Assembly (NCBI GenBank): GCA_963773195.1
Contig: CAVZAE010000002.1
Location: 71,821 to 135,820 of the forward strand
Direction of reading: 5' to 3'
Source of the DNA: an uncultured beta proteobacterium
GTDB lineage: Bacteria; Pseudomonadota; Gammaproteobacteria; Burkholderiales; Casimicrobiaceae
Length of the DNA stretch: 64,000 nucleotides
This document shows positions 19,389 to 62,530 of the stretch, piece after piece. A model generated the notes under the pieces. It was not told the DNA's origin. It did not search any database and was given only the letters and a program-made list of their open reading frames with translations. The translations under genes were made by a program, and so were the position numbers. The stretch's first letter is position 1. The number at the start of each line of letters is the position of its first letter.

Positions 19389-20030
19389 TCACTCCGCGTC
19401 GGGTTGTCGGGCCGGCGCCGCCGCCGCAAACGCGGGCAGCGCGAGACACGCGGCCTCGATCCGCACGAGCGTCGGATACGGCGCGAAATCGAATTCGACG
19501 CGTCGCGCGTTCGCCATCTGCGGCACGAGGCAGATATCGGCGACGCTCGGCGCATCGCCGTGGCAGAAGTTGCCCGTGCCGGCCTCGCGCGCGAGCCGGG
19601 TTTCGAGCGCCTCGAAGCCCACATCGATCCAGTATTTGTACCAACCGTTCTTCTGCTCGTCGGTGATGCCGAGCGTACCGGTCAGATAGTGGAGCACGCG
19701 CGTGTTGTCGAGCGGATGGATGTCGCACGCGACCGCCAGCGCGAGCGAGCGCACGCGCGCGCGCCCAGCCGGATCGAGCGGCAGGATCGGCGGGGCGGGG
19801 AACGTCTCGTCCAGCCACTCGAGGATGGCGATCGACTGGGTCAGCACGTCGCCGTCATCGGTGACGAGCGACGGCACGAGTCCCTGCGGGTTGAGCGACA
19901 GGTACTCGTCGCCGCGCTGCTGGCCCCTTCGCAGGTGCACGAACGCCCGCTCGGGAGCCACGCCTTTGAGGTTAAGGGCGATGCGGACCCGGTACGCGGC
20001 CGACGAGCGGAAGTAGTCGTAGAGCTTCAT
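19389..20030 (-). CDS. maiA: Maleylacetoacetate/maleylpyruvate isomerase (zeta-class glutathione S-transferase)
   Basis: 213 aa: [23 protein letters not shown]...[10 protein letters not shown]...[10 protein letters not shown] matches the GST-zeta catalytic N-domain (SSxxxRVRIAL). Confidence 0.85.
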
Positions 20031-20048
20031 CGATCCGCCACGACGGGA

Positions 20049-21251
<1,203 letters not shown>

Positions 21252-21318
21252 GGCGGACTCTGCTGAAAGGAAATGATACCGATTTTCTGGACCGGACTCC
21301 GACCCAGGTCGACGCGCG

Positions 21319-21747
21319 TCAACCGGCCGCCGGCACGACGGCAGTCGCCTCGATCTCGACCCGCGCCGCATCTTCCATCAACCCGGTAACCTCGACTGCC
21401 GACATCGCGGGATAGTGGAGACCCATGATCTCGCGGTAGGCGCGGCCGAGTGCCTTACTCGACGCCAGGTATTCGCGCTTGTCGACGACATACCACGTCA
21501 TCCGCACGACGTGCTCGGGTCCTGCCCCCGCCTCCGCCAGCACTGCGACGATGTTGGCGAGCGCTTGGCGCGCCTGCGCGACGAAGTCCGAGTTCTCGAA
21601 GCGCTGCGCGGTGTTCCAGCCGATCTGGCCGCCGACGAACACGAGGCGCCCCTGCGCGGCGATGCCATTGGCGTAGCCCTTCGTCTTCGCCCAGCCCGCC
21701 GGATGGAGCACGCGCGAGCCACCCGCCTCTTTCCGGATACCGCTCAT
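21319..21747 (-). CDS. RidA/YjgF-family reactive enamine/imine deaminase
   Basis: Internal ATG (complement of 21745-21747, overlapping the ligase TGA) gives 142 aa: ...[22 protein letters not shown]...[30 protein letters not shown]...[26 protein letters not shown]. Confidence 0.88.
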
Positions 21748-23384
21748 TGGCGTCCCTCCCGCGAGTCGCGCTCGAGCTGGCGAAGCCTGGCCCGCTGCAA
21801 CTTGCCCACTTCGCTGCGCGGCAGCGAGGGCAGATAGGCAATCGCGCGTGGATACTTGTAGGGCGCGATCGATTGCTTGACGAACGCCTGCAGCTCGGCG
21901 GTCAGCCCCGGACCGGGATCGAAGCCCGGCTTGAGCACGACGAAGGCCTTGACGATCTGTCCACGCTCCTCGTCCGGCACGCCGACGACGCCGCATTCGG
22001 CCACCGCCGGGTGTTGGAGCAGCGCGCCCTCGACCTCGGGGCCGCCGATGTTGTAGCCGGCGGTGATGATCATGTCGTCCGCGCGCGCATGGTAGTAGAA
22101 GCAGCCGTCGGCGTCGCAGGAGAACGTGTCGCCGGTGTAGTTCCAGCCGCCCTGGACGTATTGGCCCTGACGGTCGTCGGCGAGATAGCGGCAGCCTGTC
22201 GGGCCCTTCACCGCCAGTCGGCCGACGGTGCCCGTCGCCACTGGCCGCCCAGCGTCGTCCATCACCGCGGCACGGTAGCCGGGAACGACGGTCCCGAGCG
22301 CGCCCGGTTTCGCGTTCGCTTCGTCGTTCGAGATGAAGATGTGGAACATCTCGGTGGAACCGATGCCGTCGATGATGTCGATCCCGGTCGCGTTCTTCCA
22401 CAGCGTGCGCGTACCCGGCGGCAGCGCCTCACCGGCCGACACGCATTTGCGCAGCGACGAAAGATCGTGCTGCCGGGCGCTCGGTGCCATCGCCCGATAC
22501 GACGTCGGTGCCGTGAACAGCACGGTCGCCCGATGCTCGGCGATCGCGGGCAGGAGCGCATCGGGCGTCGGGCGCTCGAGCAAGAGCGTCGAGGCACCGA
22601 TCCGCAGCGGAAACAACAGGAGTCCACCGAGGCCGAATGTGAACGCGAGGGGCGGACTGCCGGTGAACACGTCGTCCGCGGTCGCGCGCAGCATCGAAGG
22701 CGGCCAGCACTCGCACGCCGCGATCAGGTCGCGGTGGAAGTGCATCGTGCCCTTGGGCTTGCCCGTCGTGCCCGAAGTGAACGCGATCAGCGCGGTATCC
22801 TCGGCCATGGTGTCAACGGCGGCGAAGCGCGCAGGCTTGGAGACCATACGAGCTTCGAGCCCTTCGCCGGCGGGGCCATTGAAAAGGGCGACCTGCGCGA
22901 GCGTCCGGCATTGCGCCCGCGCGAGGTCGAGCTCGGTGGCGAGCCGCGCGTCGCACAGCGCGTGCGAAATCTCGCCCCTGATGATGATCTCGGTCAGCTC
23001 CTTCGCCCGGAGGAGCGGCATCGTGCCGACCGCGATGCCTCCCGCCTTGAGCACTGCCAGGAAACACGCGGCATACATCGGATTGTTCGGCGCGCGCAAC
23101 AGCACGCGGTTCCCCGGGACGACGCCCAGATCCTCGACCAGCACCCGCGCGATCCGGTTGGCAGCGGCGTCGAGCTCCAGGTACGTCCAGCGCAAACCTC
23201 CGGGTGCCCGGATCGCGATGCGTTCGCCCTGCCCGCGCTCGATGACCCCGCCGAGCAGCACGCTCGCCGCGTTCATCCGCTCCGGAAGTTGGAGCGCAGG
23301 CAGTTCGAAGATGAACTCGGGCCACGCTTCGCGCGGCGGCAGTTGATCGCGCGCGAACGTGTCGACGTGCGCGGTGTACGTCAT
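21744..23384 (-). CDS. Aryl-CoA ligase of the benzoate / 2-aminobenzoate-CoA ligase family (AMP-forming)
   Basis: Internal ATG (complement of 23382-23384) gives 546 aa. AMP-binding motif [20 protein letters not shown]...[21 protein letters not shown]-terminal lysine motif SEVGKLQR. Uninterrupted. Confidence 0.88.
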
Positions 23385-24556
23385 CGTGACGGGCTCCTCT
23401 CTCCGGAATCCAGTACGTCGCGGCCGACAATAAGCCTCTGGACCTCGGTCGCCCCTTCGTAGATGCGAAGCGCGCGTATCTCGCGATAGAGGCGTTCGAC
23501 GATCTCCCCACGCGCGACGCCGCGGCCGCCGAAGAGCTGGACTGCCGCGTCGATCACCCGTTGCGCCGACTCGGTCGCCGTCATCTTCGCCATCGCCGCC
23601 TCGCGCGTCGCGCGAAGCTTCTGCACGTCGCGGCGCCACGCCGCGCGGTACGTGAGCAGCGCCGCCGCATCGATCGCCGTCGCCATCTCGCCGAGCGTCG
23701 CCTGCGTGAGCTGAAGGTCGGCCTGCCGTGCACCGAACATCGGACGCTCGCGCGCATGGGCCACTGCCTCATCGAGCGCGCGCCGCGCGAAGCCCAGCGC
23801 CGCCGCGGCGACCGACGCGCGGAAGACGTCGAGTGTGCGCATCGCGAGCTTGAAGCCGTCGCCCGCCGCCCCGAGCAGCGCGTCGGCGGGAATCCGACAC
23901 TCGTTGAATTCGAGCCGGGCGAGCGGATGCGGCGCGATCACGTCGATGCGCTCGGCCACGCGGAGGCCCGGCGCGTCGGCCGGGACGACGAAGGCCGAGA
24001 TGCCGCGCGTACCCGTGGTCGCCGGCTCGCGCGCGAAGACACAATAGAAATCAGCGATGCCGCCGTTGCTGATCCACGTCTTCGTGCCACCGAGCACCCA
24101 CGCGTCGCCGTCGCGGCGCGCCGACGTCGTCATGGCGCCGACGTCGGAGCCGGCGAGCGGCTCCGACAACGCGAACGCGGCGATCGCGTCGCCCGCGGCG
24201 ACCTTCGGCAGCCATCGCGCACGCTGCGCAGAATCGCCCGCGAGCGTGATCGGACCGCTGCCGAGCCCCTGCATCGCGAAGGCGAAGTCGGCAAGTCCGT
24301 CCGCATACGCGAGCGTCTCGCGGGCGATGCAAAGCGCGCGCGAATCGAGTGCCGGGAGCGCACCGCCGTCCACCGCTGCGACGCAATAGCGCAGCCAGCC
24401 GGCCTGCCCGAGCCCTCGCACGAAATCGCGGCACGTCGCGTCGACGTCCTGGTGCTCGCCGTTGCGCAACTCCGCCGCGCTCCAAGCGCCGAGGTCCCCG
24501 GCGAGGCGGCGATGGGCGTCGTCGAAGAACGGCCACGCAAGGTGATCGCGATTCAA
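23381..24556 (-). CDS. Acyl-CoA dehydrogenase family protein
   Basis: C-terminal 391 codons of ORF 23381..25579: (M)[21 protein letters not shown]...[16 protein letters not shown]...[18 protein letters not shown]...[15 protein letters not shown]. Start inferred as TTG (complement of 24554-24556), or CTG at 24562 overlapping the upstream TGA. Confidence 0.85.
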
Positions 24557-24558
24557 GC

Positions 24559-25395
24559 TCAGTTTCCCTCGAAGTTTGGCCTTCGCTTCGCTGCAAAGGC
24601 CTCGTAGGCACGCCTGAAGTCGGCCGTCTGCATGCAGATCGCCTGCGCTTCGGCTTCCGCTTCGATCGCGGCGTCCAGGTCCATCGCCCATTCCTGATGG
24701 AGGAGCTTCTTGGTCATCCCGTGCGCGAACGTCGGTCCGTCGGCCAGCGAGCGCGCAAGCGTTTGCGCGTCCGTTGCGAGGTCGGAGGGCATCACCAGCC
24801 GGTTGAAGAAACCCCAGGCGAGCCCTTCGTCGGCGCTCATCGCGCGACCGGTGTAGAGCAGCTCGGACGCGCGGCCCTGCCCGATCATCCGCGGCAGGAG
24901 CGTGCACGCGCCCATGTCGCAGCCGGCGAGACCGACGCGCGAGAACAGAAACGCGGTCTTCGCGGCCGGCGTGCCGAGCCGGAAGTCGGAGGCGAGCGCG
25001 ATCATCGCGCCCGCACCCGCGCAAACCCCATCGACGGCGGCGACGATCGGTTGCGGGCACCCGCGCATCGCCTTGACGAGGTCGCCCGTCATCCGCGTGA
25101 ACGCGAGCAGCTCGGGCATCGTCATCTTCGTGAGCGGGCCGATGATCTCGTGCACGTCGCCGCCCGAGCAGAAGTTGCCGCCTGCGCCCGTGACGATCAC
25201 CACCTTCACGTCGCTCGCGTAGACGAGGTCGCGGAAGAGGTCGCGCAACTCGGCGTAGGAGTCGAACGTCAGCGGGTTCTTTTTCTCCGGCCGGTCGAGC
25301 CTGAGCGTCGCCACCTTGCCGTCGGCGTCGCTGTCCCAGCGGAAATGCTTCGCCGCGTAGTCGCGGAGCGGCCGCCTGTGATGCGCCATCGTCAT
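24559..25395 (-). CDS. Enoyl-CoA hydratase/isomerase (crotonase) family protein
   Basis: Internal ATG (complement of 25393-25395, overlapping the marR TGA) gives 278 aa: ...[26 protein letters not shown]...[16 protein letters not shown]...[21 protein letters not shown]. Confidence 0.88.
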
Positions 25396-25913
25396 GAGTT
25401 GCCTCCTCCTGCAGCCGGTCCCTGCGCCGCGAGCGCACGCTTGAGGCGTCCGAGCAGCGCATGCAGGCGGTCGCGGTCGCCTTCTGCGAAACCCGCCAGC
25501 ATCTCCTCGACCCAGCGTTCGTGCTCGGCGGCCATCGCATCGAACGACCGCTTGCCTGCAACCGTGAGCCGGACCGCATGTGCGCGCCGGTCGCCGGGAA
25601 TCGCGCGCCGCTCGACCAGTCCTTCGGCGACCAGCGCCGCGGTGATGCCGGTGACGTTGCCGCCCGTCACCATCATCCGCCGCGACAGCTCGCCCATCCG
25701 CAGGCCCTCGGGATGACGCTCGAGCTGGGCCATCAGGTCGAAGCGTGGCAGCGTCGTCTCGAAGCCCTCGCGCAGCCGGCTGCGGATCCGGCTCTCGATC
25801 AGCATCGTGCATGTGAGCAGCCTGAGCCACAGCCGCAGCGCGTCGTGGTGGTCGTCGCGCACGCGCGACTCGGCATCGGCGGGAATCTCGATCGTATCGT
25901 TCATCGCGCTCAT
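25392..25913 (-). CDS. MarR-family transcriptional regulator
   Basis: Internal ATG (complement of 25911-25913) gives 173 aa: ...[63 protein letters not shown] is the winged-helix MarR core. Confidence 0.88.
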
Positions 25914-28366
25914 CCGCGTGGCCTCCGCACTGCACGCGAGGATCGGTAGCCGAGAGGTGGGCCGCCGGAATCGCTCGGCGACGCGCCCTTCGGGCCTTGG
26001 CTGACACCCGCCTCGCTCATCCGTTCCTCCGGTCGCTCTGCCGCCATCTGCGCCGCGCGCGCGAGGTTGCGCTCGAGCTGCGCCTTGCCCGAGAGGTACT
26101 GCGGCGGCCACGCCATGTCGTGTAGCCGAGTGCGCCGCCGCGTGCAGCGTCCAGTACGGGTCCGCGAGATGCGGCCGCGCGAGCGCGCACAGGTCGGCGC
26201 GCCCCGCCATCATGATGCTGTTGACGTGGTCGGCCTCGAAGATCGCGCCGACGGCCATCGTCGCGATGCCGACCTCGTTCCGGATGCGGTCGGCGAACGG
26301 CGTCTGGTACATGCGGCCGTAGACCGGCTTCGCCTCGCGCGTGGTCTGCCCGGACGACACGTCGATCAGGTCGGCGCCCGCCGCCTTGAAGAGCCGCGCG
26401 ATCGCGACCGCGTCGTCCGGCGTGTTGCCGCCCGGCGCCCAGTCGTGGGCCGAGATCCGCACCGACATCGGCCGCTCGTGCGGCCACACGGCGCGCATCG
26501 CGCGGAACACCTCGAGCGGAAAGCGGCAGCGATTCTCGAGCGACCCGCCATAGCTCGTCGTCGCGCGCGATTGGTCAGCGGACAGATGAACGCCGACAGC
26601 AGGTAGCCGTGCGCGCAGTGCAGCTCGAGCCAGTCGAAGCCGCATTCGGCGCCGCAGCTGCGCGGCACGGACGAAGTCGCTCACGAACGCGGTCCATGTC
26701 GTCGCGCGGTCATCGCGCGCGGTACCTGGTTGCTGCGGACCATAGGCGATCGCCGAGGGCGCGATCAGCGGCCAGTTGCCCTGCGGCAACGGCTCGTCGG
26801 CGTCCTCCCAGCCGAGCTGCGTCGAGCCCTTCGGACCCGCGTGACCGAGCTGCAGCGCGATCTTCGCCGGCGTGCGGGCATGCACGAAGTCGACGATGCG
26901 CCTCCACGCGTCGCGCTGCTCGGGCCGTTCCACAGGCCGGCGCAGCCGGGCGTGATGCGCGCGTCCGCCGAGACGCAGGTCATTTCGGTGAACACGAGCC
27001 CGGCGCCGCCCAGTGCGCGCGGCTGCCCAGATGCACCAGGTAGAAGTCGTCGGGCATGCCGTCGCGGCACGAGTACATGCGCCATCGGCGACACGACGAC
27101 GCGGTTCGGCAAGCGTGATGCCGCGCAGCGTGAACGGCGTGAACATCGGCGGACGGCGTCTCCGCGTCGCCTGCGCTCTGCGCGAACCAGGCTTCGATCC
27201 GTTCGACGAAGCCCGGCGTCGCGCAGCCGCAGGTTCTCGTGGCCGATGCGCTGGCTGCCGGTCAGCAGGCTGTAGGCGAACTGCACCGGCTTCGAGGGCC
27301 GTGTAGCGCGCGACGTTCTCGAACCATTCCATGCGAGTTGCGCGCGGCGCTCTGCAGCTTCAGCACCTCGATCGCGCGCTCGCGCCTCGTATGCAGCGAG
27401 CGCGGTCCGGAGGTCGGGCGCTCGCGCCGATGTCGCGTGCGAGCGCGATGCGCGTCCTCCATGCGCGAGCTTGGTGCCCGAGCCGATCGAGAAGTGCGCC
27501 GTGTGCGCGGCGTCGCCCATCAGCACGACGGACGGCGGCCTCGACGTCGGTCCAATGCGCCCACGTCCGGCAGACGACGCGGGGAAACCTGATCCAGACC
27601 GCCGAGCCGCGCAGGTGCGCGCGTTGCTCATCAGCCGATGGCCGCCGAGCCACGTGCGCGAACAGCCGCTCGCAGAAGCGCGATGGCCTCGTCCTGGCTC
27701 ATTTGCTCGAGCCCGGACCTGTGCCAGACGTCCTCGGGCGTTTCGACGATGAACGTCGATGGTGTCTTCGTCGAACCGGTAGGCGTGCACCTGGAACCAG
27801 CCGTGGTCGGTCTCGTCGAACGCGAACGTGAACGCGTCGAACCGCTGCTTCGTGCCGAGCCAGATGAAGCGGCACTTGCGCACGTCGACGTCCGGGCTGA
27901 ACGTGCTCCGCGATAGCGCGTGCGGATCGAGCTGTTGACGCCGTCGGCCGCGACGACGAGATCGGCGCCGAAGTCGCGAGCCGTGCGATGTCGTCCGGCA
28001 CGTCCGTCTCGAACACCGAGTTCGACGCCCAGCGCTTCGCGGCGCGCTCCTGCAGGATGTTGAGCAGCCGCTTGCGGCCGATGCCGCAGAAGCCGTGGCC
28101 GCCCGACGTGATCTTCGTCCGCGGAAGTGAGACGTCGATGTCGTCCCAGTGGTGGAAGCTGCGCCGCGATCTCGGCGTGCGGTCTCGGGATCGGCCTCGC
28201 GAAAGTTGCCCAGCGTCTCGTCGGAGAACACGACGCCCCAGCCGAAGGTGTCGTCGGGCCGGTTGCGCTCGACGACGCGTGATGTCGCGTGCCGCGGATT
28301 CGCCTTCTTCATCAGGATCGAGAAATACAGGCCGGCCGGGCCGCCGCCGATGCAGACGATGCGCAA
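25910..28366 (-). pseudogene. 2-aminobenzoyl-CoA monooxygenase/reductase-like (salicylyl-CoA 5-hydroxylase family) bifunctional flavoprotein gene, fragmented by at least 20 (about 30) frame switches
   Basis: Homology islands lie in all three minus-strand frames, e.g. (M)[186 protein letters not shown]...[10 protein letters not shown]. Start is probably TTG at 28366 behind GAGGAGG (alternative ATG at 28426). The TGA overlaps the marR ATG. Confidence 0.85.
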
Positions 28367-28411
28367 GGGTCCTCCTCGAAGAGCCCGGCCGCGCCATCCG
28401 GCAGCAAGCGC

Positions 28412-28439
28412 TTTAAGGTTAAACATATTAGACCTTAAA
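28412..28439. promoter_or_regulatory. Perfect 8-bp inverted repeat TTTAAGGT-N12-ACCTTAAA in an AT-rich patch upstream of the monooxygenase-marR operon (candidate MarR operator/promoter)
   Basis: Seen directly at 28412-28419 and 28432-28439. The surrounding 35 nt are conspicuously AT-rich in an otherwise GC-rich sequence. Lies in the divergent gap between the catabolic operon and fimT. Confidence 0.35.
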
Positions 28440-28551
28440 TAGTGCCTGTCAAGCGCCGTTCGGTCATCCGGACGATTGCAGTGCTCTCTCCGGCCGTCGA
28501 GGATCGAGCGCGACGCGGACATCCCGGCCGCCTCGACCTCCGGAGATCCTC

Positions 28552-29097
28552 ATGGACCCTCACCGCCGGAGCGCGGTATCAGGTGTGACGCTGATCGAGC
28601 TTCTGGCCGGCCTCGCGCTGGCGGCCGTGCTCGTCGCCCTCGGCCTGCCCGTCTATGCCGACTGGATCGCCGACTATCAGGTGCTGAACCATGCGGAAAA
28701 ACTCGCGGGCACCATGAATATCGCGCGCTCCGAGGCGCTGAAACGCGGCCACCCCGTCGACGTGTGCAAGTCGGTGGACTTGCGCGACTGCGCGAGCAGG
28801 GGCGGCTGGGAGGAAGGCTACATCATGCTTGTCGACAGCGATCGCGATGGTGCGCTCGATGCCGGCGAGCGTGCGCTTCGCGTCGAGGGACCTGCCGCGA
28901 ATGGCATCACGATCCGTGGCAATCGCCCCGTCGCCGACTACATCTCGTACACGAGCCTCGGTACGGCGCGGTTGCTGCGCGGCGGACTGCAGATGGGCAC
29001 GATCACCGTGTGCAAGAGCGGACGACGCGCGGTCGATGTCGTGCTGGCGCACAGCGGACGCGCGCGCATTCAGCGCACCGCGGCCATCTGCCCCTGA
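28552..29097 (+). CDS. fimT: Type IV pilus minor pilin, GspH/FimT family
   Basis: 181 aa. Prepilin leader and N-methylation motif GVTLIELLAGLALAAVLVALGLPVY, followed by a GspH-domain-like body. GGAG lies 8 nt upstream of the ATG. Confidence 0.8.
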   Translation: MDPHRRSAVSGVTLIELLAGLALAAVLVALGLPVYADWIADYQVLNHAEKLAGTMNIARSEALKRGHPVDVCKSVDLRDCASRGGWEEGYIMLVDSDRDGALDAGERALRVEGPAANGITIRGNRPVADYISYTSLGTARLLRGGLQMGTITVCKSGRRAVDVVLAHSGRARIQRTAAICP

Positions 29098-29254
29098 CGT
29101 TCTTCGTCACTCCGTCGTGCAAGGACCGGGCGACGCTCGCAACGTCGCCTGGCAAGTGCGTCACCGTCCGTTCCCGCAGGGCGGCCACTGGTCGGGATCG
29201 TTTGCCGGAGCCCCTCCCCGCCCCTACGATAGCCCCACCTCAAAGGGGAGTGCC

Positions 29255-29714
29255 ATGCATCGTGCCCATCTTCCAGCGGTTCGTTCGAGCACCGGCTTCA
29301 CGCTGCTCGAGTTGATGATTGTCGTGCTCGTGATCGGCATCCTCGCCGCGATCGCGACCCCGATGTACGCCGACTATCTCATCCGCGGCAAGCTCGTTGA
29401 CGCCACGACCAAGCTCGGAGACTTCCGCACGCAGATGGAGAAGTACTACATGGACAACCTGGACGTACCTTAACGGCGCGGCCTGCGGCGTGCCGAATCT
29501 CGTGCTGAGGCCGGACGACAACTTCCAGGTCACCTGCGCCGGAGCGGCGGGTCCGCCGGAAACCTACACGGTCACCGCGGCGGGCGTGGCCGCGAGGGGG
29601 ATGGCGGGTTTCGTGTACACCGTCGATCAGGCGAACGCGAAAACATCGGCTGGCCCTAGCGGCAAATACACGAATGGCGCGTGCTGGGCGCTTCGTAAGG
29701 ACGGCACGTGCTAA
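29255..29714 (+). pseudogene. pilE: Type IV pilin PilE-like minor pilin, with a +1 frame switch near 29457-29462
   Basis: ATG at 29255 behind AAAGGGGAG: MHRAHLPAVRSSTGFTLLELMIVVLVIGILAAIATPMYADYLIRGKLVDATTKLGDFRTQMEKYYMDN, then TAA. The remainder (TYLNGAACGVP...FQVTCAGAAGPPETYTVTAAGVAARGMAGFVYTVDQANAKTS...CWALRKDGTC*) is in ORF 29397..29714. The span is 460 nt (3n+1). Confidence 0.8.
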
Positions 29715-30265
29715 TGGCGCTGCCGCGCACCGGGGGCTTCACGCTGATCGAGCTCATGATCGGGATCGCGATCGCCGCGACCCTGGTGGTGCTCGCACTG
29801 CCTGCCTACCAGGTCTGGATCGCCGACGCGCAAATCCGCAACGCCGCCGAGTCAATCGCCAGCGGCATGCGCCTCGCGCAAGGCCAGGCGGTCGCGCGCA
29901 ACGCCACGATCGAGTTAAGTCTCGATCCGACCACAGGTACCGGGGGTTGGACGGCGCAACAGATCGACCGAACGACCTGCGCCGCCGTGGGAACGCCCGT
30001 GCAGGTCGCGACGTTTCAGGAAGGCTCGCCGCTCGCCAAATTCCTTCCGTTGCCCGCCGGTGCCACGACGGTGCAGTTCACGAGCCTCGGTGCCACGGCC
30101 GCGCCTTGCGACGGCAGCCCGACGCTGACCGAGGTCCAGATCTCGTCCGCGGTCGGGGTTGCCGGCGCACGCAATTTGAACGTGCTGGTCGGCGGCAGCC
30201 GCACCGGCATCAAGGTCTGCGACCCGAAGTGGCCCGCCACCGATCCCAAGGGCTGTCCCCCGTGA
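29714..30265 (+). CDS. fimU: Type IV pilus minor pilin, GspH/FimU family
   Basis: MALPRTGGFTLIELMIGIAIAATLVVLALPAYQVWIADAQIRNAAESIASGMRLAQ... The ATG at 29714 overlaps the pilE TAA; a GTG at 29708 is an alternative start. Sits directly upstream of pilV, as fimU does in characterised operons. Confidence 0.8.
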   Translation: MALPRTGGFTLIELMIGIAIAATLVVLALPAYQVWIADAQIRNAAESIASGMRLAQGQAVARNATIELSLDPTTGTGGWTAQQIDRTTCAAVGTPVQVATFQEGSPLAKFLPLPAGATTVQFTSLGATAAPCDGSPTLTEVQISSAVGVAGARNLNVLVGGSRTGIKVCDPKWPATDPKGCPP

Positions 30266-30744
30266 ACACACCAATGCGTACCTTGCGAACCCGCCGCTTG
30301 TCGACGCCGCGCGCCCAGCACGGCAACTTCCTGCTCGAGGCACTGATCTCGGTGCTGATCGTCGCGTTCGGGCTGCTCGGCCTGCTCGCGCTCCAGGCCC
30401 GCGCGATGCAGAACGTCGACGATGCCCAGTACCGGGCCGAGGCCGCCTATCTGGCAAACGCGCTGCTCGGCCAGATGTGGGTGCACGACCCGAAGACGGC
30501 GCAGCTCAAAGCCGACTTCGACGATTCCGCGGGCGGGCCCAACTACATCGAATTCAAGACCTGGGTGGCGCAGCGGCTCCCCGGGGGAAACATCTTCGCT
30601 CCCAAAGTGTCCGTTGCGCCGGGCCTGACGCCGCAGGCCACCGATGTGCGCATTCAGATCTTCTGGCAGCCGCCGAGCGAGGCTTCGTCCCCGCTGGGGC
30701 CACACAAGTACGACATCGCTGCGACCGTCGCGGGGAATCCATGA
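30262..30744 (+). CDS. pilV: Type IV pilus modification/minor pilin PilV
   Basis: Internal to ORF 29674..30744: (V)NTPMRTLRTRRLSTPRAQHGNFLLEALISVLIVAFGLLGLLALQARAMQNVDDAQYRAEAAYLANALLGQMW. GTG at 30262 overlaps the fimU TGA; ATG at 30274 is an alternative start. Confidence 0.8.
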   Translation: MNTPMRTLRTRRLSTPRAQHGNFLLEALISVLIVAFGLLGLLALQARAMQNVDDAQYRAEAAYLANALLGQMWVHDPKTAQLKADFDDSAGGPNYIEFKTWVAQRLPGGNIFAPKVSVAPGLTPQATDVRIQIFWQPPSEASSPLGPHKYDIAATVAGNP

Positions 30745-31936
30745 GCGCGCGTTTCCGCCGTTCGCCTGCGCGCCAGCGCGGCATGGGCATCGTCGAGACG
30801 ATGGTCGGAATCCTGATCGGGATGGTCGTCGTCCTCGCGATCTACAACGTCTTCGCGATCGCCGAGGGCTACAAGCGGACGACGGTGGGCGTCGCCGACG
30901 CGCAGACCACCGGCCTCTTCGCTCAATTCATCCTGGCGCGTGAAATCGGCAACGCCGGCACGGGGCTTGCGATCAACGCGGCGAACCTCGTGAAGTGCAG
31001 GCTCGGTGACCCGAACTGGGTCTCGCCGCCAGGGTTCTTCACGCTAGCCGGTGCGCGCGCCGTCCGTCCGGTTCCAGTGCTGATCCGCGACGGCGGCGCC
31101 GCCAACGCGTCGGAGCAATTGATCGTCACCTACGCCACGCCGGTGCACATCGTCAATTCGGTGCTCATCGTCGACGCGCCGATGGCGGTCAACACCGACC
31201 CGATCTACGTGCAAAGCCCGAACGGTTTCCGGGTCAACGACCGGATCATCGTCAACGCCGAGAACGCGGCCGGTGATTGCGAGCTTACGACGATCACCGG
31301 CATAACGCCGGGCGACTCGCTCGGCAACGTCACGACCGGGATGGTCGGCCTCTCGCACCCCGCGCTGGCGAAGGCCACGTACATACCCTCCGGTGCCACG
31401 GATGCCGCCAACGTGCTCAATATGGGCCAGGTCGGCGAGTCGACGCGGACGCTGTTCGACATCGCCGGCAATCAGCTGCGGACGACCGACCTGCTCGCCA
31501 ACGCGCCGGCCGTCCCCATCGCGCAGAATGTGGTGCTGCTCAAGGCGCAATACGGCGTCGATTGTGCCGGCAACGGCATCGTCACCTGGACGTCGGCCAC
31601 GGCGAGCGGCGTGTGCGGCCGCAACTACACGCCCGACGACTTCATGCCCCCGCGCCGGCGGTCGCGGCCCAGGGGATGAACACGACGACCTACGCGCAAT
31701 GGCTGTCGCGGATCCGCGCGGTGCGGATCGCGATCGTCGTGCGCAGCGACCAGCCCGACCTCAAGGACCCGGCGCTCGTTGGCCAGACCGCCAGGCTCTT
31801 CGACTGCTCGGCCCACAACGCCACCTGCCAGGGTGTGATCGCGATCAACAGCGCGACCCTGACCGACGGCTGGCGGCACCGGATCTACGAGACGATCGTC
31901 CCGATGCGCAACGCGATCTACAACAACGGAACGTGA
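30741..31936 (+). pseudogene. pilW: Type IV pilus assembly protein PilW, frame switch in a C5 run at 31647-31651
   Basis: MSARFRRSPARQRGMGIVETMVGILIGMVVVLAIYNVFAIAEGYKRTT... (ATG overlaps the pilV TGA) reads to ...GRNYTPDDFM, then continues in ORF 31277..31936 as PAPAVAAQGMNTTTYAQWLSRIRAVRIAIVVRSDQPDLKD...PMRNAIYNNGT*. The span is 1196 nt (3n+2). Confidence 0.8.
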
Positions 31937-32592
31937 TGACCATGCCTGCCATTCGACCACGCGTTGCCGCGCCGCGCGCCCAGCGGGGCGTCGTCCTGTT
32001 CATCGCACTGATCGCGATGGTGGTGATGAGCCTCGCGGGCGTGGCACTGATCCGCGCCGTCGACACGTCCGGCTCGGCCGCGGGCAACATCGCGTTCCGG
32101 GAAGCTTCAGTCACCGCGGTCAACTTTGCCATCGAGCAAGCGGTCGATTGGCTGTACGTGAACAAGACGCTCAATCCGGATACCGACGTCGACAACGTGC
32201 ACCACTACTACGGCAAGCTCCAGGCGGGCGAGTTGTCGAACGGCGTGCCGGCAGTGCTCGGCGGTACGTACACGGCGATGAAGGTGGCGTACCCATTCGG
32301 CCCGGCGGACACCTACACCGCTTTCCCCACCCTGCCGGGGAACGCCGAGGTCCGGTCGGTGATCGAGCGGATCTGCAGCCCCGCGGCGCCCGTCCCCCCG
32401 GCTCCGGCGGTGCTGACCTTTATCGAGAAGACCCAGTATTGCGATTCACAACCGCCGAAAGTCTCACCGGCCAAGACGTCGATGAAGCTCAAGGGGCCGA
32501 CGCTCCCGCCGATTCCACTTTACCGCGTCACGATCCGAGTCGATCTACCGGGCACCAACACGGCATCGTACGCGCAGGCGATGCTGCACTGA
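31936..32592 (+). CDS. pilX: Type IV pilus minor pilin PilX-family protein
   Basis: ATG at 31936 overlaps the pilW TGA: MTMPAIRPRVAAPRAQRGVVLFIALIAMVVMSLAGVALIRAVDTSGSAAGNIAFREASV is the PilX N-terminal pattern. 218 aa. Confidence 0.75.
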   Translation: MTMPAIRPRVAAPRAQRGVVLFIALIAMVVMSLAGVALIRAVDTSGSAAGNIAFREASVTAVNFAIEQAVDWLYVNKTLNPDTDVDNVHHYYGKLQAGELSNGVPAVLGGTYTAMKVAYPFGPADTYTAFPTLPGNAEVRSVIERICSPAAPVPPAPAVLTFIEKTQYCDSQPPKVSPAKTSMKLKGPTLPPIPLYRVTIRVDLPGTNTASYAQAMLH

Positions 32593-32617
32593 TCGCCGGC
32601 GCACAGGGAAGGCTGCC

Positions 32618-54461: not shown

Positions 54462-56274
54462 CTACGGCTTGCGCGCCTTCTCTGCGGCGATCCACTCCGT
54501 GACCTGGTCGTCGAGCACGTCGAGCGGCAGCGCGCCGTGGTCGATCACCGCGTTGTGGAAGCGGCGAAGGTCGAATGCCGGGCCGAGCTCCGCACGCGCT
54601 TTCGCGCGGAGCGCCTTGATCCTGAGTTCGCCGATCTTGTAGGCGGTGGCCTGTCCGGGCGTCACGATATAGCGGTCGACCTCGGCCACTGCGAACTCCG
54701 GCGTGAGCGCGGCGTTGTCGACAAGGTACGCGATCGCCCGCTCGCGCGTCCAGCCGAACGCGTGGAGACCCGTGTCGACGACGAGCCGTGCGGCGCGGTG
54801 CATCTCGGCCGCCAGGTTGCCGTATTTCGAATACGGATCGCGTAGAAGCCCATTTCGTGGCCCAGGCTCTCGGCATAGAGCGCCCAGCCTTCCGAGAACG
54901 CGACGAAGAAGCCGTTGCGCCGGAAGGGCGGCAGCTCCGCGAGCTCCTGCGCGCGCGCGATTTGCAGGTGGTGCCCGGGCACCGCTTCGTGCAGCACCAG
55001 CGTCTCCATGCTCCACTTCGGGCGGCGCGAAAGCGAGTTGACGTTCGCCTCGAAATAGCCGGCGCGCCCGGCCTCGGCGAACCGCGCACGTAGTGCTCGG
55101 CGTTGTCGCCTTCCTCCGGACGCATGGCGCGAACGCCATAGGGCAGGCGCGGCAGCACGGCGAAGAAGCCTGGCAGCACCGCATCGGCCCGCTTCGCGAT
55201 GTCGCGGTAGCCCTCGAGCATGTCGTCGGCACGCGTGTAGAAGAACTGCGGGTCCTTGTTCAGGAAGATCTGGAACTCGGCGCGTGTGCCCTTGAACCCC
55301 GCGGCCGCGACCGTTTCGTCCATCGCCTTGCCGATACGCGCGACCTCGGCGAGCCCGAGATCGTGGATCTCGCGCGGCGAGAGCTTCGTCGTCGTGTAGA
55401 ACGCGAGCCGCGCCTCGTAGTAGCGACTACCCGCCGGCAGTGCCGAGGCCGCGATGTCGGTTGCCGCGACGGGCAGGTAGCGCTTGTCGTAGAACTCGCG
55501 CAGCTTGCGGAACGCCGGAACAACGGCCATCTCGATCGCGCGCCGTCCGGCGGCCGCCAGGCGCTCGCGCTCGGCAGCAGAAATGTCCGACGGAAACTTC
55601 TTGAACGGCGCGTACTCCGGACTTTGCGTCGGATCGGCGACGACCTGGGCGTCGAGCTGCGACGGGACGCGCGCGACGGCGATCTTGGCGGGCATCCAGC
55701 CGAGCTTCATCCCCAGTTCCATCCGCGCGATGAGCTGGTCGACCAGCGCTGGCACGGCGTGCAGGCGCGCGATGTACGCCTCGTAGTCGCGCACCGACCC
55801 GAACGTCGTTGCGTCGACGAGGCGGGGCAGTTCGAGGTGGACACCACCGAACTGCGTGACGGGTGACCAGAACTCACCCTGATTGCAGGAGAGCGGCGCG
55901 CAGAGGCGACCAAGCGCGACCGCCTGCTCGAGCTGGTAGCGCAGGACACGCAAGGACACCCGGTCCTCCGGCGCGAGCGCGCCGGCGTCGATCGCAAGCG
56001 CACGCTCGAGAAACCGCTCGCGCTGCGTTTTGCGCCGCTCCACCGCCTCCGCCGACTGGTCGGCGAGACGATCGCGGTAGCGAGGATCGCCGACATAGGT
56101 CGCAATCTCGGGATATTCGCTGAGGTTCCATTCCCAGACCTCACCGAACAGCGCGTGCGCGTCGCGCACCGGATCGGGTGTCGGCGTCGGCTGCGCGAGC
56201 GCCGTCGAGAGAAGAGTGCCGGTCATGAGGGCGACCAGGAGGATGAACGCGGCCAGCGCCGCATGGATTTGCAT
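54462..56274 (-). pseudogene. DUF885-family (M-like HExxH) protein with signal peptide, two frame switches (~55070-55090 and ~54838-54843)
   Basis: MQIHAALAAFILLVALMTGTLLSTALAQ...RAMRPEEGDNAEHY (frame of ORF 54052..56427). AGYFEANVNSLSRRPKWSMETLVLHEAVPGHHLQIARAQ...EGWALYAESLGHEMGFY (ORF 54662..55009). DPYSKYGNLAAEMHRAARLVVDTGLHAFGW...DVLDDQVTEWIAAEKARKP* (ORF 54462..55232). Confidence 0.8.
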
Positions 56275-56369
56275 GATCGATGGGAGCCGAGGTGATGCGC
56301 CCCGAAGCGCATCGAGGGAAAGACGCACGCGACGGAAAACCGCCGGCGCGGATGGTACTACGCTCGTCG

Positions 56370-57159
56370 CTATTCGTCGAGCAGCAGCTTCCGCCCGCGA
56401 CGCCGGGTCCTGCTTGTAGAACGACATGAACTGCTTGTAGACCTTCGAATACTCGTGCAGAAGCAGTGCGGGATCGGAGAAGAAAACCTGGAGAGGACGG
56501 CGAAGAACTCGGCCGGCGACTCGGCGGCATACGGGTCGATGGCCGTATGATCACCGCTCTCGACACGCGTGCGGAAATGCTCATAGGCCGCCGTCAGCGT
56601 CTTCTTCCAGATGTGCGGCGGCATCGTCGCGGGCAGCGGCGGGCACCCATTGGCCTCGCCGTTGCGCATGTCGAGCTTGTGCGCGAACTCGTGAACCACG
56701 AGGTTCATCCCGGCCGAGTCCCAGTCGGCTGAGGCCTCGACGTCGTACCACGACAGCACGACCGGGCCACCGGGCATGGATTCGCCGGCGAGCGGTCCTT
56801 CGTTGCGGTGGACAACACCCGCTTCGTCCTCCGTATTCCCACCCCGGAATGAATTCATCGGGATAGACGATGATGTTCTCCCAACCGTCGTAGTAGGCCA
56901 TGTCGAGGTTCAAGACGAGCACGCAGGCCTGAACGGCGATGATCACGCGCTGGAGTGGCGTCACCGCGTGGCCCCGCGCGCCGACGATCGATTTTGCGGA
57001 CAGGAAGAGGATGACCTTCGCGCGAAGGCGCGCAAGCTCCTCGTCCGTGTAGATCGCGACGAAAGGCAGCGACTCGAGCGCGTCCCGCCACAGCGCATCC
57101 GGAATCGCGGCGCTCCTGAGCACGCGCTTGCGGCGCCAGTTGCGCAGCGCCTCGAACAT
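56370..57159 (-). pseudogene. mtfA: MtfA-like (peptidase M90) zinc-dependent peptidase, at least two frame switches (~56830-56834, ~56488-56491); 3' end uncertain
   Basis: MFEALRNWRRKRVLRSAAIPDALWRDALESLPF...YDGWENIIVYPDEFIPGWEY (ORF 56581..57159). EDEAGVVHRNEGPLAGESMPGGPVVLSWYDV...NLVVHEFAHKLDM...AESPAEFFAVLS (ORF 56370..56858). EVFFSDPALLLHEYSKVYKQFMSFYKQDPA (frame of ORF 54052..56427). Confidence 0.75.
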
Positions 57160-57168
57160 GGCGGAGCG

Positions 57169-58506
57169 TCAACCGGAGCCGGGTTCGGAAGAGACTTCCG
57201 ACGGCTCGCTGTCGAAGAGATCGCCTGTCGCGTCGGTGATCAGCAGGCGCTCGGCCTCCTCCTCGGGCAGCGTCTCGACCTCGCGCAGCGTCCGCGCCAT
57301 CGCCCGCGTGCGCACGCCGGCCTTTTCGATGGACGTGCCCGCTTCATCGAGCTTCTTCTTGATGCCGGCCAGCACGTCGGCGAACCTTGAGAACTCGGTC
57401 TTGACGAGGGCGAGCGTCTTCCACACCTCGCTCGAGCGCTGCTCGATTGCAAGCGTCCGAAAACCCATTTGCAGGCTGTTCAGGAGCGCGAGGAAATCGT
57501 CGGGCCGGTGAGCGTGACCCGGAACTCGCGCTGCAGCTGGTCGGCGAAGCCCGGGCGCGACATCATCTCGGCGTAGAGGCCTTCCGTCGGCACGAACAGG
57601 ATCGCGAAGTCGGTCGTGTGCGGCGGCGCGACGTAGGCGTCGCGGATTGTCTTTGCCTGGATCCGCAGGAAGTCGGCGAGCGCCTTACGCGCGAGCGTCG
57701 GCCGCGGGCGCATCGGCGCGCTCGAGCGCATCCTGCAGCCGCTGCCAGTGCTCGAGCGGGAATTTGGCATCGATCGGCAGCCAGCACGGCGCGCCATCGG
57801 CACCGCGGCCGGGAAAGCGGATCGCGAACTCGACGCGCCGGTTGCTGCCGGGAACGGTTTCGACGTTCGCCTCGTACTGCTGCGGCGTCAGCACCTCGGA
57901 AAGGAGCATTCCGAGCTGCGTCTCGCCCCACGTGCCGCGCGTCTTGACGTTGGTCAGAACCCGCTTGAGATCACCGACGCCGGTGGCGAGCGTCTGCATC
58001 TCGCCCAGTCCCCGGTGCACCTGCTCCAGGCGGTCCGAGACGAGCTGGAAGGAATCACCGAGCCGTTTCTCGAGCGTCGTGGAGAGTTTTTCGTCGACGG
58101 TCGCCCGCATCTGCTCGAGTTTTTGCGTGTTGTCAGCGCGCAGCGCCTCGAGCTTCTGCTCGACGGTGGCCCGCACAGCCTCAAGCCGGCGCTCGTTCGA
58201 CTGCGTGAGCTGACCCAGCTGGTCGCCGAAGCGCGCGAGCGTCGCGCCGAGGTCGGAGCGCGCACTCTGCGTCGCCTGCGCCTGCTCGGCACGCCCATGC
58301 GCCAGATCCTGCCGCACGTCGCGCTCGAAGTCAGCCGCCTGCGCGGCCAGTATCTCCAGACGCGTCTTGAGATCAGCGGCCTCGCGCACCGCACCGTCGC
58401 GCGCCGCCACCAACGTCGAAAGGCGGGAGAGCGCGAGCGCGACGAGCCCGGCAATCGCAGCAAGCGCAACCACAACGACGATGATCAGGGGCGAACTCTC
58501 CGTCAT
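57169..58506 (-). pseudogene. rmuC: DNA recombination protein RmuC with a compensating pair of frame switches (~57685-57690 and ~57495-57500)
   Basis: ORF 57685..58506 (TM anchor, coiled coil, ...TRGTWGETQLGMLLSEVL...WLPIDAKFPLE...) stops at TAA. KALADFLRIQAKTIRDAYVAPPHTTDFAILFVPTEGLYAEMM...VTLTGPT follows in ORF 57480..57803. FLALLNSLQMGFRTLAIEQRSSEVWKTL... follows in ORF 57169..57468. The total span is 1338 nt (3n). Confidence 0.85.
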
Positions 58507-58519
58507 GAAGTCCAGTTTA

Positions 58520-59530
58520 CTATGGCTCCGAAAGCGCCAGCGCGGCGAACGAAGCGAGCCAGTGTGTGCCCGCGTAGTCGGCTCCGTCGAGCGCTGCTAC
58601 GCCGGCCGCCTGATGTAATGCGGCGGCCTCGCTCACCACCGCCGCGCGCGGATCGCCGGCGGCGAGCGCCGATGCAATTCCACGGAAGCACCACGCGCGC
58701 GCCAGGTTGAGGCCGTGGAGATGGACGATGTGCGGATCGCTCGCAGCGCTGACCGCGAGCGGTGTGAACAGCTGCAAGGGCTCCCGCCGCCCAATCCCGG
58801 GAAGGAATCGATCGAGCCACTGCCCGAACGCGTCGGCCGCGAACACCCGCCGCATCAGCTCGGCCTCGACGAGCGACGGCGAGAGAAAATCGAAGCCCGA
58901 CGGTTCCCACGCGGCGGGGGCATCGCGATCGTGCGCGAACCAGCTCCGGGCTCTGCCCTCGATCGCCATGGCCAGAGCGCTCTCGTCCGCGCCGCGGGCA
59001 TAGTCGAGCGCGAACAGCACGCCGAACGCGCTATTCGAATGCATCCCGTAGCGCACCGGGTAGTCGGCTTTCGGGAGCCAGCGCAGGTAGCGCTCGACGA
59101 ACGCGCGCGCGAGGGGTGCGAGTTGACGCGACCACCGGCGCGCGCGGGCGTCGTCGGAGCACGCGAGCTCGTCCGCGAGCTTCAGGAGCCATGTCCAGCC
59201 GTAGGGACGCTCGAACGTCTGCGCGTGCGGCCGCTCGAGGTAGGCGCATTCGGCCGCAATATTGGCGAGTGCCAGGTGGCGATCGAGCAGCGTGTCGATC
59301 TGCTCGCGCTCCGGCAGCGCCGGATGCAATCTCCGCACACGGACGAGCAGCCAGTGCATGTGCACGCAGGAGTGCCAGTCGTAGCTGCCGTAGAAGGCCG
59401 GGTGCAGCATCCGCGGCGGCAAGAGATCGGCATCACTGGCGGGCACGTGGTCGGCCTTGCCCGGATATTCGCGAACGACGTTCGCGAGCGCGATGGTGGC
59501 GAAGCGGGAAGCGAGGGTCGCGGACAGCAT
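58520..59530 (-). CDS. DUF2891-family protein
   Basis: MLSATLASRFATIALANVVREYPGKADHV...PAFYGSYDWHSCVHMHWLL...ERPYGWTWLLKL...YPVRYGMHSNSAFG. Start placed at the internal ATG (complement of 59528-59530). The track ATG at 59587 adds 19 Ser-rich residues. Confidence 0.8.
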   Translation of the reverse strand: MLSATLASRFATIALANVVREYPGKADHVPASDADLLPPRMLHPAFYGSYDWHSCVHMHWLLVRVRRLHPALPEREQIDTLLDRHLALANIAAECAYLERPHAQTFERPYGWTWLLKLADELACSDDARARRWSRQLAPLARAFVERYLRWLPKADYPVRYGMHSNSAFGVLFALDYARGADESALAMAIEGRARSWFAHDRDAPAAWEPSGFDFLSPSLVEAELMRRVFAADAFGQWLDRFLPGIGRREPLQLFTPLAVSAASDPHIVHLHGLNLARAWCFRGIASALAAGDPRAAVVSEAAALHQAAGVAALDGADYAGTHWLASFAALALSEP

Positions 59531-62248: not shown

Positions 62249-62347
62249 GGGTTCGGGCCGGCGAACCGGGCGAATCGGCCGGGCATCGACGCCCAGGCAG
62301 CAAAACAGTGGATTATAGCCGGCCGGCCCGACTTTGGGCCAGAAAAT

Positions 62348-62376
62348 TTCGCAAAATCCGAAACTTAGACTATAAT
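62348..62376 (+). promoter_or_regulatory. Sigma-70-type promoter candidate for the DEAD-box helicase gene: TTCGCA-N17-TATAAT
   Basis: -35 TTCGCA at 62348-62353, a 17-nt AT-rich spacer, perfect -10 TATAAT at 62371-62376. It predicts a leader of about 150 nt before the ATG at 62531. Confidence 0.45.
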
Positions 62377-62530
62377 ATCTTCTCGAGCGGCCGTTCCGGT
62401 CTCCGCTCAGCAAAACGTGGGATGCACCCGCCCAACGGGGCGGGAGCTGCATCGCACGGTCCAACGGTGTTTTCCCCCCGCTGCCTGGACCGGAAATCCC
62501 GCAAGGGATGGGCCGCGACCAGGAGCTTTC

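What the first reader, a model, noticed from the sequence alone, without database searches (positions are those of the whole stretch)
25910..28426. A fully recognisable 800-codon flavoprotein gene that changes reading frame about every 80 nt
The region encodes a full-length homologue of the bifunctional FAD monooxygenase plus old-yellow-enzyme reductase family. The recognisable protein is scattered over all three minus-strand frames in short islands, in this order: [20 protein letters not shown]...[23 protein letters not shown] | HHWDDIDV...[23 protein letters not shown] | VFETDVPDD | [21 protein letters not shown] | [45 protein letters not shown] | [26 protein letters not shown] | FCERLFAHV | [10 protein letters not shown] | [22 protein letters not shown] | [22 protein letters not shown] | MEDA | IALARDIGASA | PDLRTALAAYEAR | [14 protein letters not shown] | [14 protein letters not shown] | [24 protein letters not shown] | [14 protein letters not shown] | [12 protein letters not shown] | NRVVVSPMA | [21 protein letters not shown] | [29 protein letters not shown] | [33 protein letters not shown]... 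| [24 protein letters not shown] | [24 protein letters not shown]...[11 protein letters not shown] | [18 protein letters not shown].

One frame alone (ORF 26765..28522) holds 8 separate islands, so at least 20 switches are unavoidable. My hand count is about 30, and most behave as single extra nucleotides. The cofactor motifs are intact and I saw no stops inside the islands. Both gene ends keep their coupling signals: GAGGAGG-N4-TTG at the start, and a TGA overlapping the marR ATG. Damage that is purely indels, at this density and without substitution decay, is not what ordinary pseudogenes look like. Every neighbouring gene in the operon is intact.
Basis: seen in the sequence. Interest (0 to 1): 0.75.

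Follow-up and report, generated by a model that had tools for sequence, protein, structure and literature searches.

The report
Garbled consensus of a flavoprotein gene
The gene really is broken by about 34 frameshifts in this sequence, but the breaks carry the signature of a consensus built from two different gene versions, so this is most likely an assembly error and not biology.

Summary
Window 26017-28366 (minus strand) is a full-length homologue of anthraniloyl-CoA monooxygenase/reductase, which NCBI names bifunctional salicylyl-CoA 5-hydroxylase/oxidoreductase. It is broken by about 33-35 frameshifts, mostly +1.

It is very unlikely to be a real pseudogene, for four reasons.

- Two metagenome contigs of the same strain or species carry an intact 773-codon gene. 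One has no mismatch to window 19.5-25 kb.
- Against them, the window has about 170 substitutions and all the indels strictly inside the CDS, from codon 4 to two codons before the native stop.
- In 18 of 19 single-base insertions, the extra base and its neighbour are two alternative alleles of one polymorphic column (p = 8e-8). In all 19, one of the pair is the strain's own allele. In 15 the other is an allele of a distant Rhodocyclaceae-type subfamily.
- The repaired protein is a phylogenetically impossible hybrid: 17 of 68 clade-diagnostic residues are of the foreign type, against 0-3 in natural relatives.

Three other genes in the window (DUF885, peptidase M90, RmuC) also carry isolated one-base indels that a close relative lacks.

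Best explanation: a long-read consensus or polishing step fed with reads from two gene versions. I could not check the reads. Interest is low.

The parts
26017..28366 (-). Region homologous to the 773-codon abmA / salicylyl-CoA 5-hydroxylase-oxidoreductase gene. Native start is TTG at 28366-28364; native stop is TGA at 26019-26017. It is broken by about 33-35 frameshifts and carries about 170 substitutions relative to the same-strain allele.
   Evidence: the intact same-strain orthologue P0121 is an NF006101 equivalog
28371..28377 (-). Shine-Dalgarno GAGGAGG, 4 nt upstream of the TTG start. This stretch is identical to the same-strain contig L085.
   Evidence: no difference to L085 between 28356 and 28444
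26134..26552 (-). Roughly 420-nt stretch of the OYE domain with no indel and only about 11 mismatches. It is the part of the gene most conserved across the family, so the two templates agree here.
26024..26025 (-). Last +1 insertion (GAGGAC to GAGGAAC). It shifts the native TGA out of frame and creates the read-through to the TGA at 25912-25910 that overlaps the marR ATG.
27228..27262 (-). 35-nt tract exactly identical to Rhodocyclaceae-type orthologues (L042, L047, L060). It carries 6 alleles that are not those of the strain's own gene and encodes [11 protein letters not shown].
26928..26950 (-). 23-nt tract identical to L042 with 7 foreign alleles (AGLWN). It is followed by a 2-nt offset back into own-type sequence.
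27530..27542 (-). Net 5-nt deletion, located where the foreign subfamily lacks a segment. The foreign gap has been partly adopted.
25392..25913 (-). marR-family regulator gene, intact (173 aa).
24559..25395 (-). Enoyl-CoA hydratase gene, intact. Its protein is identical to the one on same-species contig ERZ25039556 contig_7158.
23381..24556 (-). Acyl-CoA dehydrogenase gene, intact. Its protein is identical to those on L084 and L085.
54462..58596 (-). Three further genes (DUF885, peptidase M90, RmuC) broken by isolated single-base indels at 57694, 57497, 56831, 56490, 55076 and 54838. This shows that the window's consensus is indel-prone.

Best explanation
The DNA string in 26017-28366 is not a faithful copy of any one molecule. 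It is a chimeric consensus produced when an assembly or polishing step combined reads from two versions of the same gene.

The two versions are:
- the organism's own intact allele (type A, as on contigs L085 and L084);
- a distant, Rhodocyclaceae-like version (type B). It could come from a co-occurring strain with a replaced allele, from a paralogue, or from orphan reads of unassembled relatives.

Where the two versions agree, the consensus is clean. Where they differ, it takes one allele (a mismatch), keeps both alleles side by side (+1), keeps neither (-1), or half-adopts a length difference.

Shown here: the hybrid composition, the allele doubling, the confinement to the CDS, the intact gene in same-strain contigs, and the indel-prone nature of the window.

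Inferred: the sequencing platform and software, probably Nanopore with Flye and Medaka. Also inferred is the reason for doubling. An error model in which transversions are rare and deletions common would explain a G/C conflict as two adjacent bases.

The organism itself most likely has an intact 773-codon gene close to P0121.
For: 1. **Intact gene in the same strain or species.** L085 (ERZ25039520 contig_71851) has no mismatch to window 19500-24999 and carries a 773-aa gene. L083/L084 also carry it intact.
2. **Differences confined to the CDS.** The first difference to L085 is at 28355 (codon 4) and the last at 26024. Flanks show 0-6 mismatches per 500 nt, against 14-47 plus all the indels inside.
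3. **Substitutions are not random noise.**
   - Codon positions 1:2:3 are 40:37:94.
   - At columns that differ, a 67-orthologue panel favours the window's base 151:78.
4. **Allele doubling.**
   - In 18 of 19 single insertions, the inserted base is a common alternative allele of the adjacent column (null 0.35, p = 8e-8).
   - All 19 pairs contain the L085 allele, and 15 of 19 contain a B-group allele.
   - Only 3 of 19 insertions repeat a neighbouring base, against about 52% expected.
5. **Deletions follow the same rule.** They sit at columns where A and B differ, and the 5-nt deletion lies in a B-group gap.
6. **Hybrid protein.** 17 of 68 clade-diagnostic residues are B-type, against 0-3 in ten natural A-clade proteins at 84-98% identity. 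Exact B-type tracts of 23-35 nt are present.
8. **Doubled pairs are almost all transversions.** 12 of 18 are G/C and 1 of 18 is a transition, against 39% transitions among plain mismatches (Fisher p = 0.004).
9. **The window's consensus is indel-prone.** It has isolated one-base indels in DUF885, M90 and RmuC that the 96%-identical contig L086 lacks. Sibling contigs L001, L002 and L084 also have broken genes.
10. **Related assemblies look like Nanopore-only work.** The relatives are MFD MAGs with Flye-style contig names. That project used metaFlye plus one round of Medaka on Nanopore-only data (PMC12313526).
Against: - No reads, coverage or provenance are available, so the mixed pile-up is inferred and not seen.
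- The available B-type representatives are only about 72.5% identical to the A allele. That is low for read cross-mapping, so the actual second template must be closer or locally conserved, and it was not found.
- Other conserved genes next door show no contamination. Why only this gene was hit is explained only by conjecture.
- Indels are not significantly clustered next to mismatches at +-2-3 nt.
- I found no paper that describes this exact doubling behaviour of a polisher.
Confidence: 0.85

Rival explanations
1. Real imported pseudogene. The strain's gene was replaced by homologous recombination, with crossovers inside the conserved ends of the CDS. The donor was a divergent, already dead mosaic allele, and the sequence is correct as written.
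For: - The divergent patch ends inside the CDS, where homology with a distant donor would exist.
- Multi-allele B-type tracts are present.
- Mismatches are enriched at codon position 3, as for a once-functional allele.
Against: - Allele doubling (18 of 19, p = 8e-8), with the recipient strain's own allele present in 19 of 19 pairs, has no mutational mechanism.
- The mosaic is on a 10-35 nt scale and phylogenetically incongruent.
- The insertions are not slippage-type.
- No related allele was found in 5.8 billion proteins or in JGI contigs.
- Same-strain contigs from two samples have the intact gene.
Confidence: 0.05
2. Unpolished raw-read patch. A stretch of the contig was left at single-read quality because of a coverage dropout, so the differences are random sequencing errors.
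For: - The window does contain isolated consensus indels elsewhere.
- The indel density of about 1.5% is in the range of raw long reads.
Against: - The errors would have to stop exactly at the CDS borders.
- Mismatches are biased to codon position 3 and towards alleles of real orthologues.
- The inserted bases match family alleles.
- About 420 nt of the most conserved part has no indel.
- Exact 23-35 nt matches to foreign orthologues are present.
Confidence: 0.04
3. In-situ decay or targeted hypermutation of the resident gene, producing an extraordinary indel-rich pseudogene. A related idea is a gene decoded by recoding or RNA editing.
Against: - Flanks are identical to L085, so there has been no time for 7-9% divergence.
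- The changes move towards another subfamily's alleles and not away from the family.
- Same-strain contigs have an ordinary intact ORF, so no recoding or editing system is needed.
- None of the insertions examined lies in a long homopolymer run of the kind that slippage needs.
Confidence: 0.02
4. A chimera introduced by some other in-silico step, such as reference-guided gap filling, merging of assemblies or bins, or deliberate or accidental editing of the record. In this case read-level mixing in a polisher is not the cause.
For: The same hybrid and doubling evidence applies. That evidence shows two templates were merged but does not identify the software step.
Against: - Fine-scale per-site mixing with single-base doubling looks more like a pile-up consensus than like merging of finished sequences.
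- The sporadic one-base indels elsewhere in the window fit a long-read consensus.
Confidence: 0.04

Closest known systems
Anthraniloyl-CoA (2-aminobenzoyl-CoA) monooxygenase/reductase, AbmA; NCBIfam NF006101 'bifunctional salicylyl-CoA 5-hydroxylase/oxidoreductase'
   Same: - Same two-domain architecture: an N-terminal FAD monooxygenase (PF01494) and a C-terminal old-yellow-enzyme FMN domain (PF00724).
- Same length class, about 773 aa.
- Same kind of gene neighbourhood: MarR regulator, enoyl-CoA hydratase, acyl-CoA dehydrogenase, AMP-forming ligase.
- The same-strain allele P0121 scores 1363 bits against a cut-off of 1078.
   Different: In the window the reading frame is interrupted about 34 times. 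The repaired protein mixes residues of two subfamilies, so as written it encodes no such enzyme.
Consensus errors of long-read (Nanopore) metagenome assemblies: residual indels, and collapsed strains or mis-recruited reads
   Same: - Isolated one-base indels in other genes of the window.
- Broken genes in sibling contigs from the same kind of assembly.
- Errors located where two sequence versions disagree.
- The related data set was assembled with metaFlye and polished once with Medaka (PMC12313526).
   Different: - The density, about 34 frameshifts in 2.3 kb, is far above the usual homopolymer-type residual error.
- The errors are not in homopolymers.
- The second template is a distant homologue and not a near-identical strain.
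- I found no published description of this exact allele-doubling pattern.
Natural mosaic genes made by recombination with diverged donors (for example mosaic penicillin-binding-protein genes); this comparison rests on general knowledge
   Same: A patch of foreign-type sequence confined to a gene, with identical flanks.
   Different: - Natural mosaics keep the reading frame and have blocks of hundreds of bases.
- Here the tracts are 10-35 nt.
- Junctions carry +1/-1 slips, and both alleles of single sites are kept in tandem.

Membership tests
AbmA / salicylyl-CoA 5-hydroxylase-oxidoreductase (NF006101) | FAD-monooxygenase domain plus OYE-type FMN domain in one polypeptide | tested here: met
   PF01494 and PF00724 hit fragments of the window. 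Both domains are present in all full-length relatives. The same-strain allele is an NF006101 equivalog.
AbmA / salicylyl-CoA 5-hydroxylase-oxidoreductase (NF006101) | One uninterrupted ORF of about 770-800 codons | tested here: not met
   The window has 33-35 frameshifts. Over 60 orthologues and both same-strain contigs have it intact.
AbmA / salicylyl-CoA 5-hydroxylase-oxidoreductase (NF006101) | Aromatic acyl-CoA pathway neighbourhood (CoA ligase, hydratase, acyl-CoA dehydrogenase, MarR) | tested here: met
AbmA / salicylyl-CoA 5-hydroxylase-oxidoreductase (NF006101) | Enzyme activity on 2-aminobenzoyl-CoA or salicylyl-CoA | not testable with these tools
   Needs biochemistry.
Genuine decaying pseudogene | Substitutions spread evenly over codon positions and drifting away from the family consensus | tested here: not met
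   Codon positions are 40:37:94. The panel favours the window's base 151:78. Of the aa changes, 56 of 95 match another subfamily.
Genuine decaying pseudogene | Divergence in the gene comparable to neutral divergence of the flanks | tested here: not met
   Flanks show 0-1% and the CDS 7-9% against the same-strain contig.
Genuine decaying pseudogene | Indels of mutational type (slippage or duplication of a neighbouring base) unrelated to alleles of other lineages | tested here: not met
   Only 3 of 19 insertions repeat a neighbour, against about 52% expected. 18 of 19 are alleles of the adjacent column.
Genuine decaying pseudogene | Read-level support for every lesion | not testable with these tools
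   No reads are available.
Programmed frameshifting / recoding / insertional RNA editing | Frame breaks conserved in close relatives, at defined slippery or editing sites | tested here: not met
   Same-strain contigs have an ordinary intact ORF. None of the insertions examined lies in a long homopolymer run.
Mixed-template consensus artefact | Lesions located at sites where two templates differ, with alleles of both templates present | tested here: met
Mixed-template consensus artefact | Two read populations in the pile-up over the region | not testable with these tools
   No reads are available, and the source record of the window was not found.

The most novel reading that the evidence does not exclude
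The sequence is correct, and the cell carries a real fine-scale chimera of its own gene and a distant homologue. Such a chimera could arise from repeated short-tract template switching or gene conversion with sloppy junctions, which occasionally copy both templates' bases. That would be a previously undescribed mutational process that destroys a gene in one step.
Probability: 0.03. Interest if true: 0.75.

Novelty: not a real feature. Interest (0 to 1): 0.08.

Why it matters
Biologically it does not matter much. The organism almost certainly has an ordinary intact anthraniloyl-CoA monooxygenase/reductase gene.

Practically it is a useful warning. A long-read metagenome consensus can contain a gene-sized patch that mixes two homologues. 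Such a patch would be annotated as a pseudogene or as several fragments, and it would distort pathway calls, pseudogene counts and phylogenies.

The signature found here is a simple diagnostic that could be applied elsewhere: each extra base and its neighbour are the two alleles of one polymorphic site.

Tried and rejected
- **First protein search.** A search with a 140-aa island returned only fragments of up to about 245 aa. Two close-looking hits, P0114 and P0106, came from noisy contigs (L001, L002) of a different species (86% nt identity) that are frameshifted throughout, so they were useless as references.
- **Plain tblastn.** It ran through the frameshifts and could not count them. I replaced it with my own frameshift-aware alignment.
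- **Source record.** Exact-protein look-ups with MarR, a 542-aa protein and a 936-aa protein from the window found nothing. The window's own record and reads remain unknown.
- **Homopolymer errors.** Rejected as the cause of the abmA indels.
- **Methylation motifs.** I considered methylation-motif or GCGC/CATG-specific errors but did not test them. Allele doubling accounts for the apparent motif.
- **Indels next to mismatches.** Not significant at +-2-3 nt.
- **A single known donor.** No panel member explains more than 64% of the non-own alleles. No closer protein exists in the large database.
- **Window-specific strings.** Two exact-string scans of JGI metagenome contigs found nothing. This is uninformative.
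- **Literature.** Searches found the likely pipeline but no description of the doubling artefact.
- **A generated or synthetic insert.** Considered, but it cannot be tested here. The return to identity with L085 just upstream of the start codon does not fit simple left-to-right generation.
Full report
**1. The observation**

The minus strand of 25.9-28.5 kb carries recognisable pieces of a two-domain flavoprotein in all three frames. Fragments hit PF01494 (FAD_binding_3) and PF00724 (Oxidored_FMN).

Over 60 orthologues fetched from GTDB genomes have one intact ORF of about 770-800 codons.

A frameshift-aware protein-to-DNA alignment counts 34 events against L006. Against the same-strain protein it counts 32 frameshifting events, plus a final +1 at 26024. 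The breakdown is about 22-23 one-base insertions, 5-7 one-base deletions and 4-5 two-base insertions.

A reference-free codon-phase HMM trained on the window breaks into short segments only in 25946-28361.

**2. The decisive reference**

The window's enoyl-CoA hydratase and acyl-CoA dehydrogenase proteins occur, residue for residue, on two ENA metagenome contigs:
- ERZ25039556 contig_7158 (L083/L084);
- ERZ25039520 contig_71851 (L085).

Both contigs carry an intact 773-aa gene at the homologous place. That protein (P0121) is an NCBIfam NF006101 equivalog, bifunctional salicylyl-CoA 5-hydroxylase/oxidoreductase, at 1363 bits against a cut-off of 1078.

L085 aligns to the window over 20 kb. It shows no mismatch between 19500 and 24999, and only three single-base indels (in the pilin cluster, 29.4-32.5 kb) outside the gene.

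Inside the gene there are 14-45 mismatches per 500 nt plus all the frameshifts. The first difference is at 28355 (codon 4). The last is the +1 at 26024, two codons before the native TGA at 26019-26017.

The native spacer to marR is 103 nt.

**3. Why it is neither decay nor random error**

- Flanks that are identical leave no time for 7-9% divergence in situ.
- The 171 mismatches fall 40:37:94 on codon positions 1:2:3.
- At columns where the window and L085 differ, a panel of 67 orthologues favours the window's base 151:78. The "damaged" copy is closer to the rest of the family than the strain's true allele is.
- The roughly 420 nt without any indel (about 26134-26552) is the stretch that is most conserved family-wide.

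**4. The allele-doubling signature**

For 18 of 19 single-base insertions, the inserted base differs from the base next to it. It is also a common (at least 10%) alternative allele of that adjacent alignment column in 65 orthologues. Random insertions would satisfy this 35% of the time (p = 8e-8).

Ten of the doubled columns are at codon position 3. Examples:

| Window has | Alleles combined |
|---|---|
| GTC+T | GTT / GTC |
| ACC+A | ACA / ACC |
| GCG+C | GCC / GCG |
| C+A in TG | CTC (Leu, own) / ATG (Met, foreign) |

Further findings:
- In 19 of 19 pairs, one base is the L085 allele. In 15 of 19, the other is an allele of a Rhodocyclaceae-type subfamily, here called B (L042, L023, L047, L049, L060).
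- Only 3 of 19 insertions repeat a neighbouring base, against about 52% expected.
- Deletions also sit on columns where the two types differ. The 5-nt deletion at 27530-27542 lies where type B lacks a segment.
- Doubled pairs are almost all transversions: 12 of 18 are G/C and 1 of 18 is a transition. Among plain mismatches 39% are transitions (Fisher p = 0.004).

I know of no mutational process that inserts, next to a base, the allele that other lineages carry at that very site. A consensus built from two templates does exactly this.

**5. The hybrid protein**

The repaired protein is 87.8% identical to L085. Of its 95 differences, 56 are residues found in the B group.

At 68 columns that separate the two clades, the window has 17 B-type residues. 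Ten natural A-clade proteins at 84-98% identity have 0-3.

Exact B-type tracts of 23-35 nt with 6-7 linked foreign alleles are present at 27262-27228 and 26950-26928. Otherwise own-type and foreign-type sites are finely interleaved.

Two window-specific strings are absent from JGI metagenome contigs, which is uninformative.

**6. Quality of the rest of the window**

DUF885, peptidase M90 and RmuC (54.4-58.6 kb) are each split over frames. A 96%-identical JGI contig (L086) has all three intact.

The window differs from it there by isolated one-base indels, without any excess of mismatches. Several lie in 2-3 nt homopolymers.

Sibling contigs from the same ENA series also have broken genes. The close relatives in GTDB are MFD MAGs with Flye-style contig names. 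That project used metaFlye plus one round of Medaka on Nanopore-only data (PMC12313526).

The window's own provenance is unknown, but it behaves like an indel-prone long-read consensus.

**7. Mechanism**

- *Shown:* two templates are merged. The lesions sit at their differences. The patch is limited to the region where the two templates are homologous or differ, which is the CDS.
- *Inferred:* reads of a second gene version were piled onto this locus during consensus or polishing. The version could come from a co-occurring strain with a replaced allele, a paralogue, or orphan reads of unassembled relatives.
- *Also inferred:* a caller whose error model treats deletions as common and transversions as rare resolves a G-versus-C conflict as two adjacent bases. 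It resolves transition conflicts by choosing one allele.

**8. Weak points**

- I had no reads.
- The available B-type representatives are only about 72.5% identical to the own allele and share little flank homology. The true second template is therefore unidentified.
- Why this gene alone was affected is conjecture.
- I found no published description of the doubling behaviour.

**9. Verdict**

The organism most likely has an ordinary intact gene. Novelty class: not a real feature. Interest is low.

Noticed in passing
window 54462-58596 (minus strand): DUF885, peptidase M90 and RmuC genes are each split over two or three frames by isolated one-base indels at 57694 +T, 57497 -A, 56831 +G, 56490 -G, 55076 -C and 54838 -A. 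All three genes are intact in the 96%-identical JGI contig L086. There is no excess of mismatches here, so these look like ordinary residual consensus indels.
   Followed up: yes
L084:11211-12814 versus L085:10129-11769 (window about 21744-23400): In sibling contig ERZ25039556 contig_7158, the AMP-forming CoA ligase gene is called only as a 155-aa C-terminal fragment. It is 546 aa in L085 and appears to lie in a single frame in the window. The window-L083 alignment shows a one-base indel at 22000-22499. Each assembly of this organism seems to have its own broken genes.
   Followed up: partly
window 28550-37700 (plus strand): A type IV pilus minor-pilin cluster (GspH/FimT-like, N_methyl pilins, PilW, PilY1) lies divergently next to the abmA operon. 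This arrangement is conserved in L001, L002, L083 and L085. Two related contigs end near here, at window positions about 33.5 kb (observed) and about 43.3 kb (extrapolated from contig coordinates).
   Followed up: no
window 33476-34170: The codon-phase HMM assigns a minus-strand frame for about 700 nt inside a long plus-strand ORF (32486-34504, probably PilY1-related). The composition is unusual; it may be a variable region or another local problem.
   Followed up: no
proteins P0001-P0120: Many database entries of this family are fragments of 226 or 231 aa that start at a conserved Met (MTxxDM...) in the OYE domain. They are mostly from contigs of 1-3 kb. These are gene-calling fragments and not a separate short protein family.
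   Followed up: partly
window 44500-46000 and 61000-64000 versus L086: Mismatch density to the JGI relative rises to 6-11% in the DctM-like and BipA/helicase regions, against 1-3% elsewhere, with no frame breaks. This is probably natural strain divergence or recombination, but no same-strain reference was available to check.
   Followed up: no
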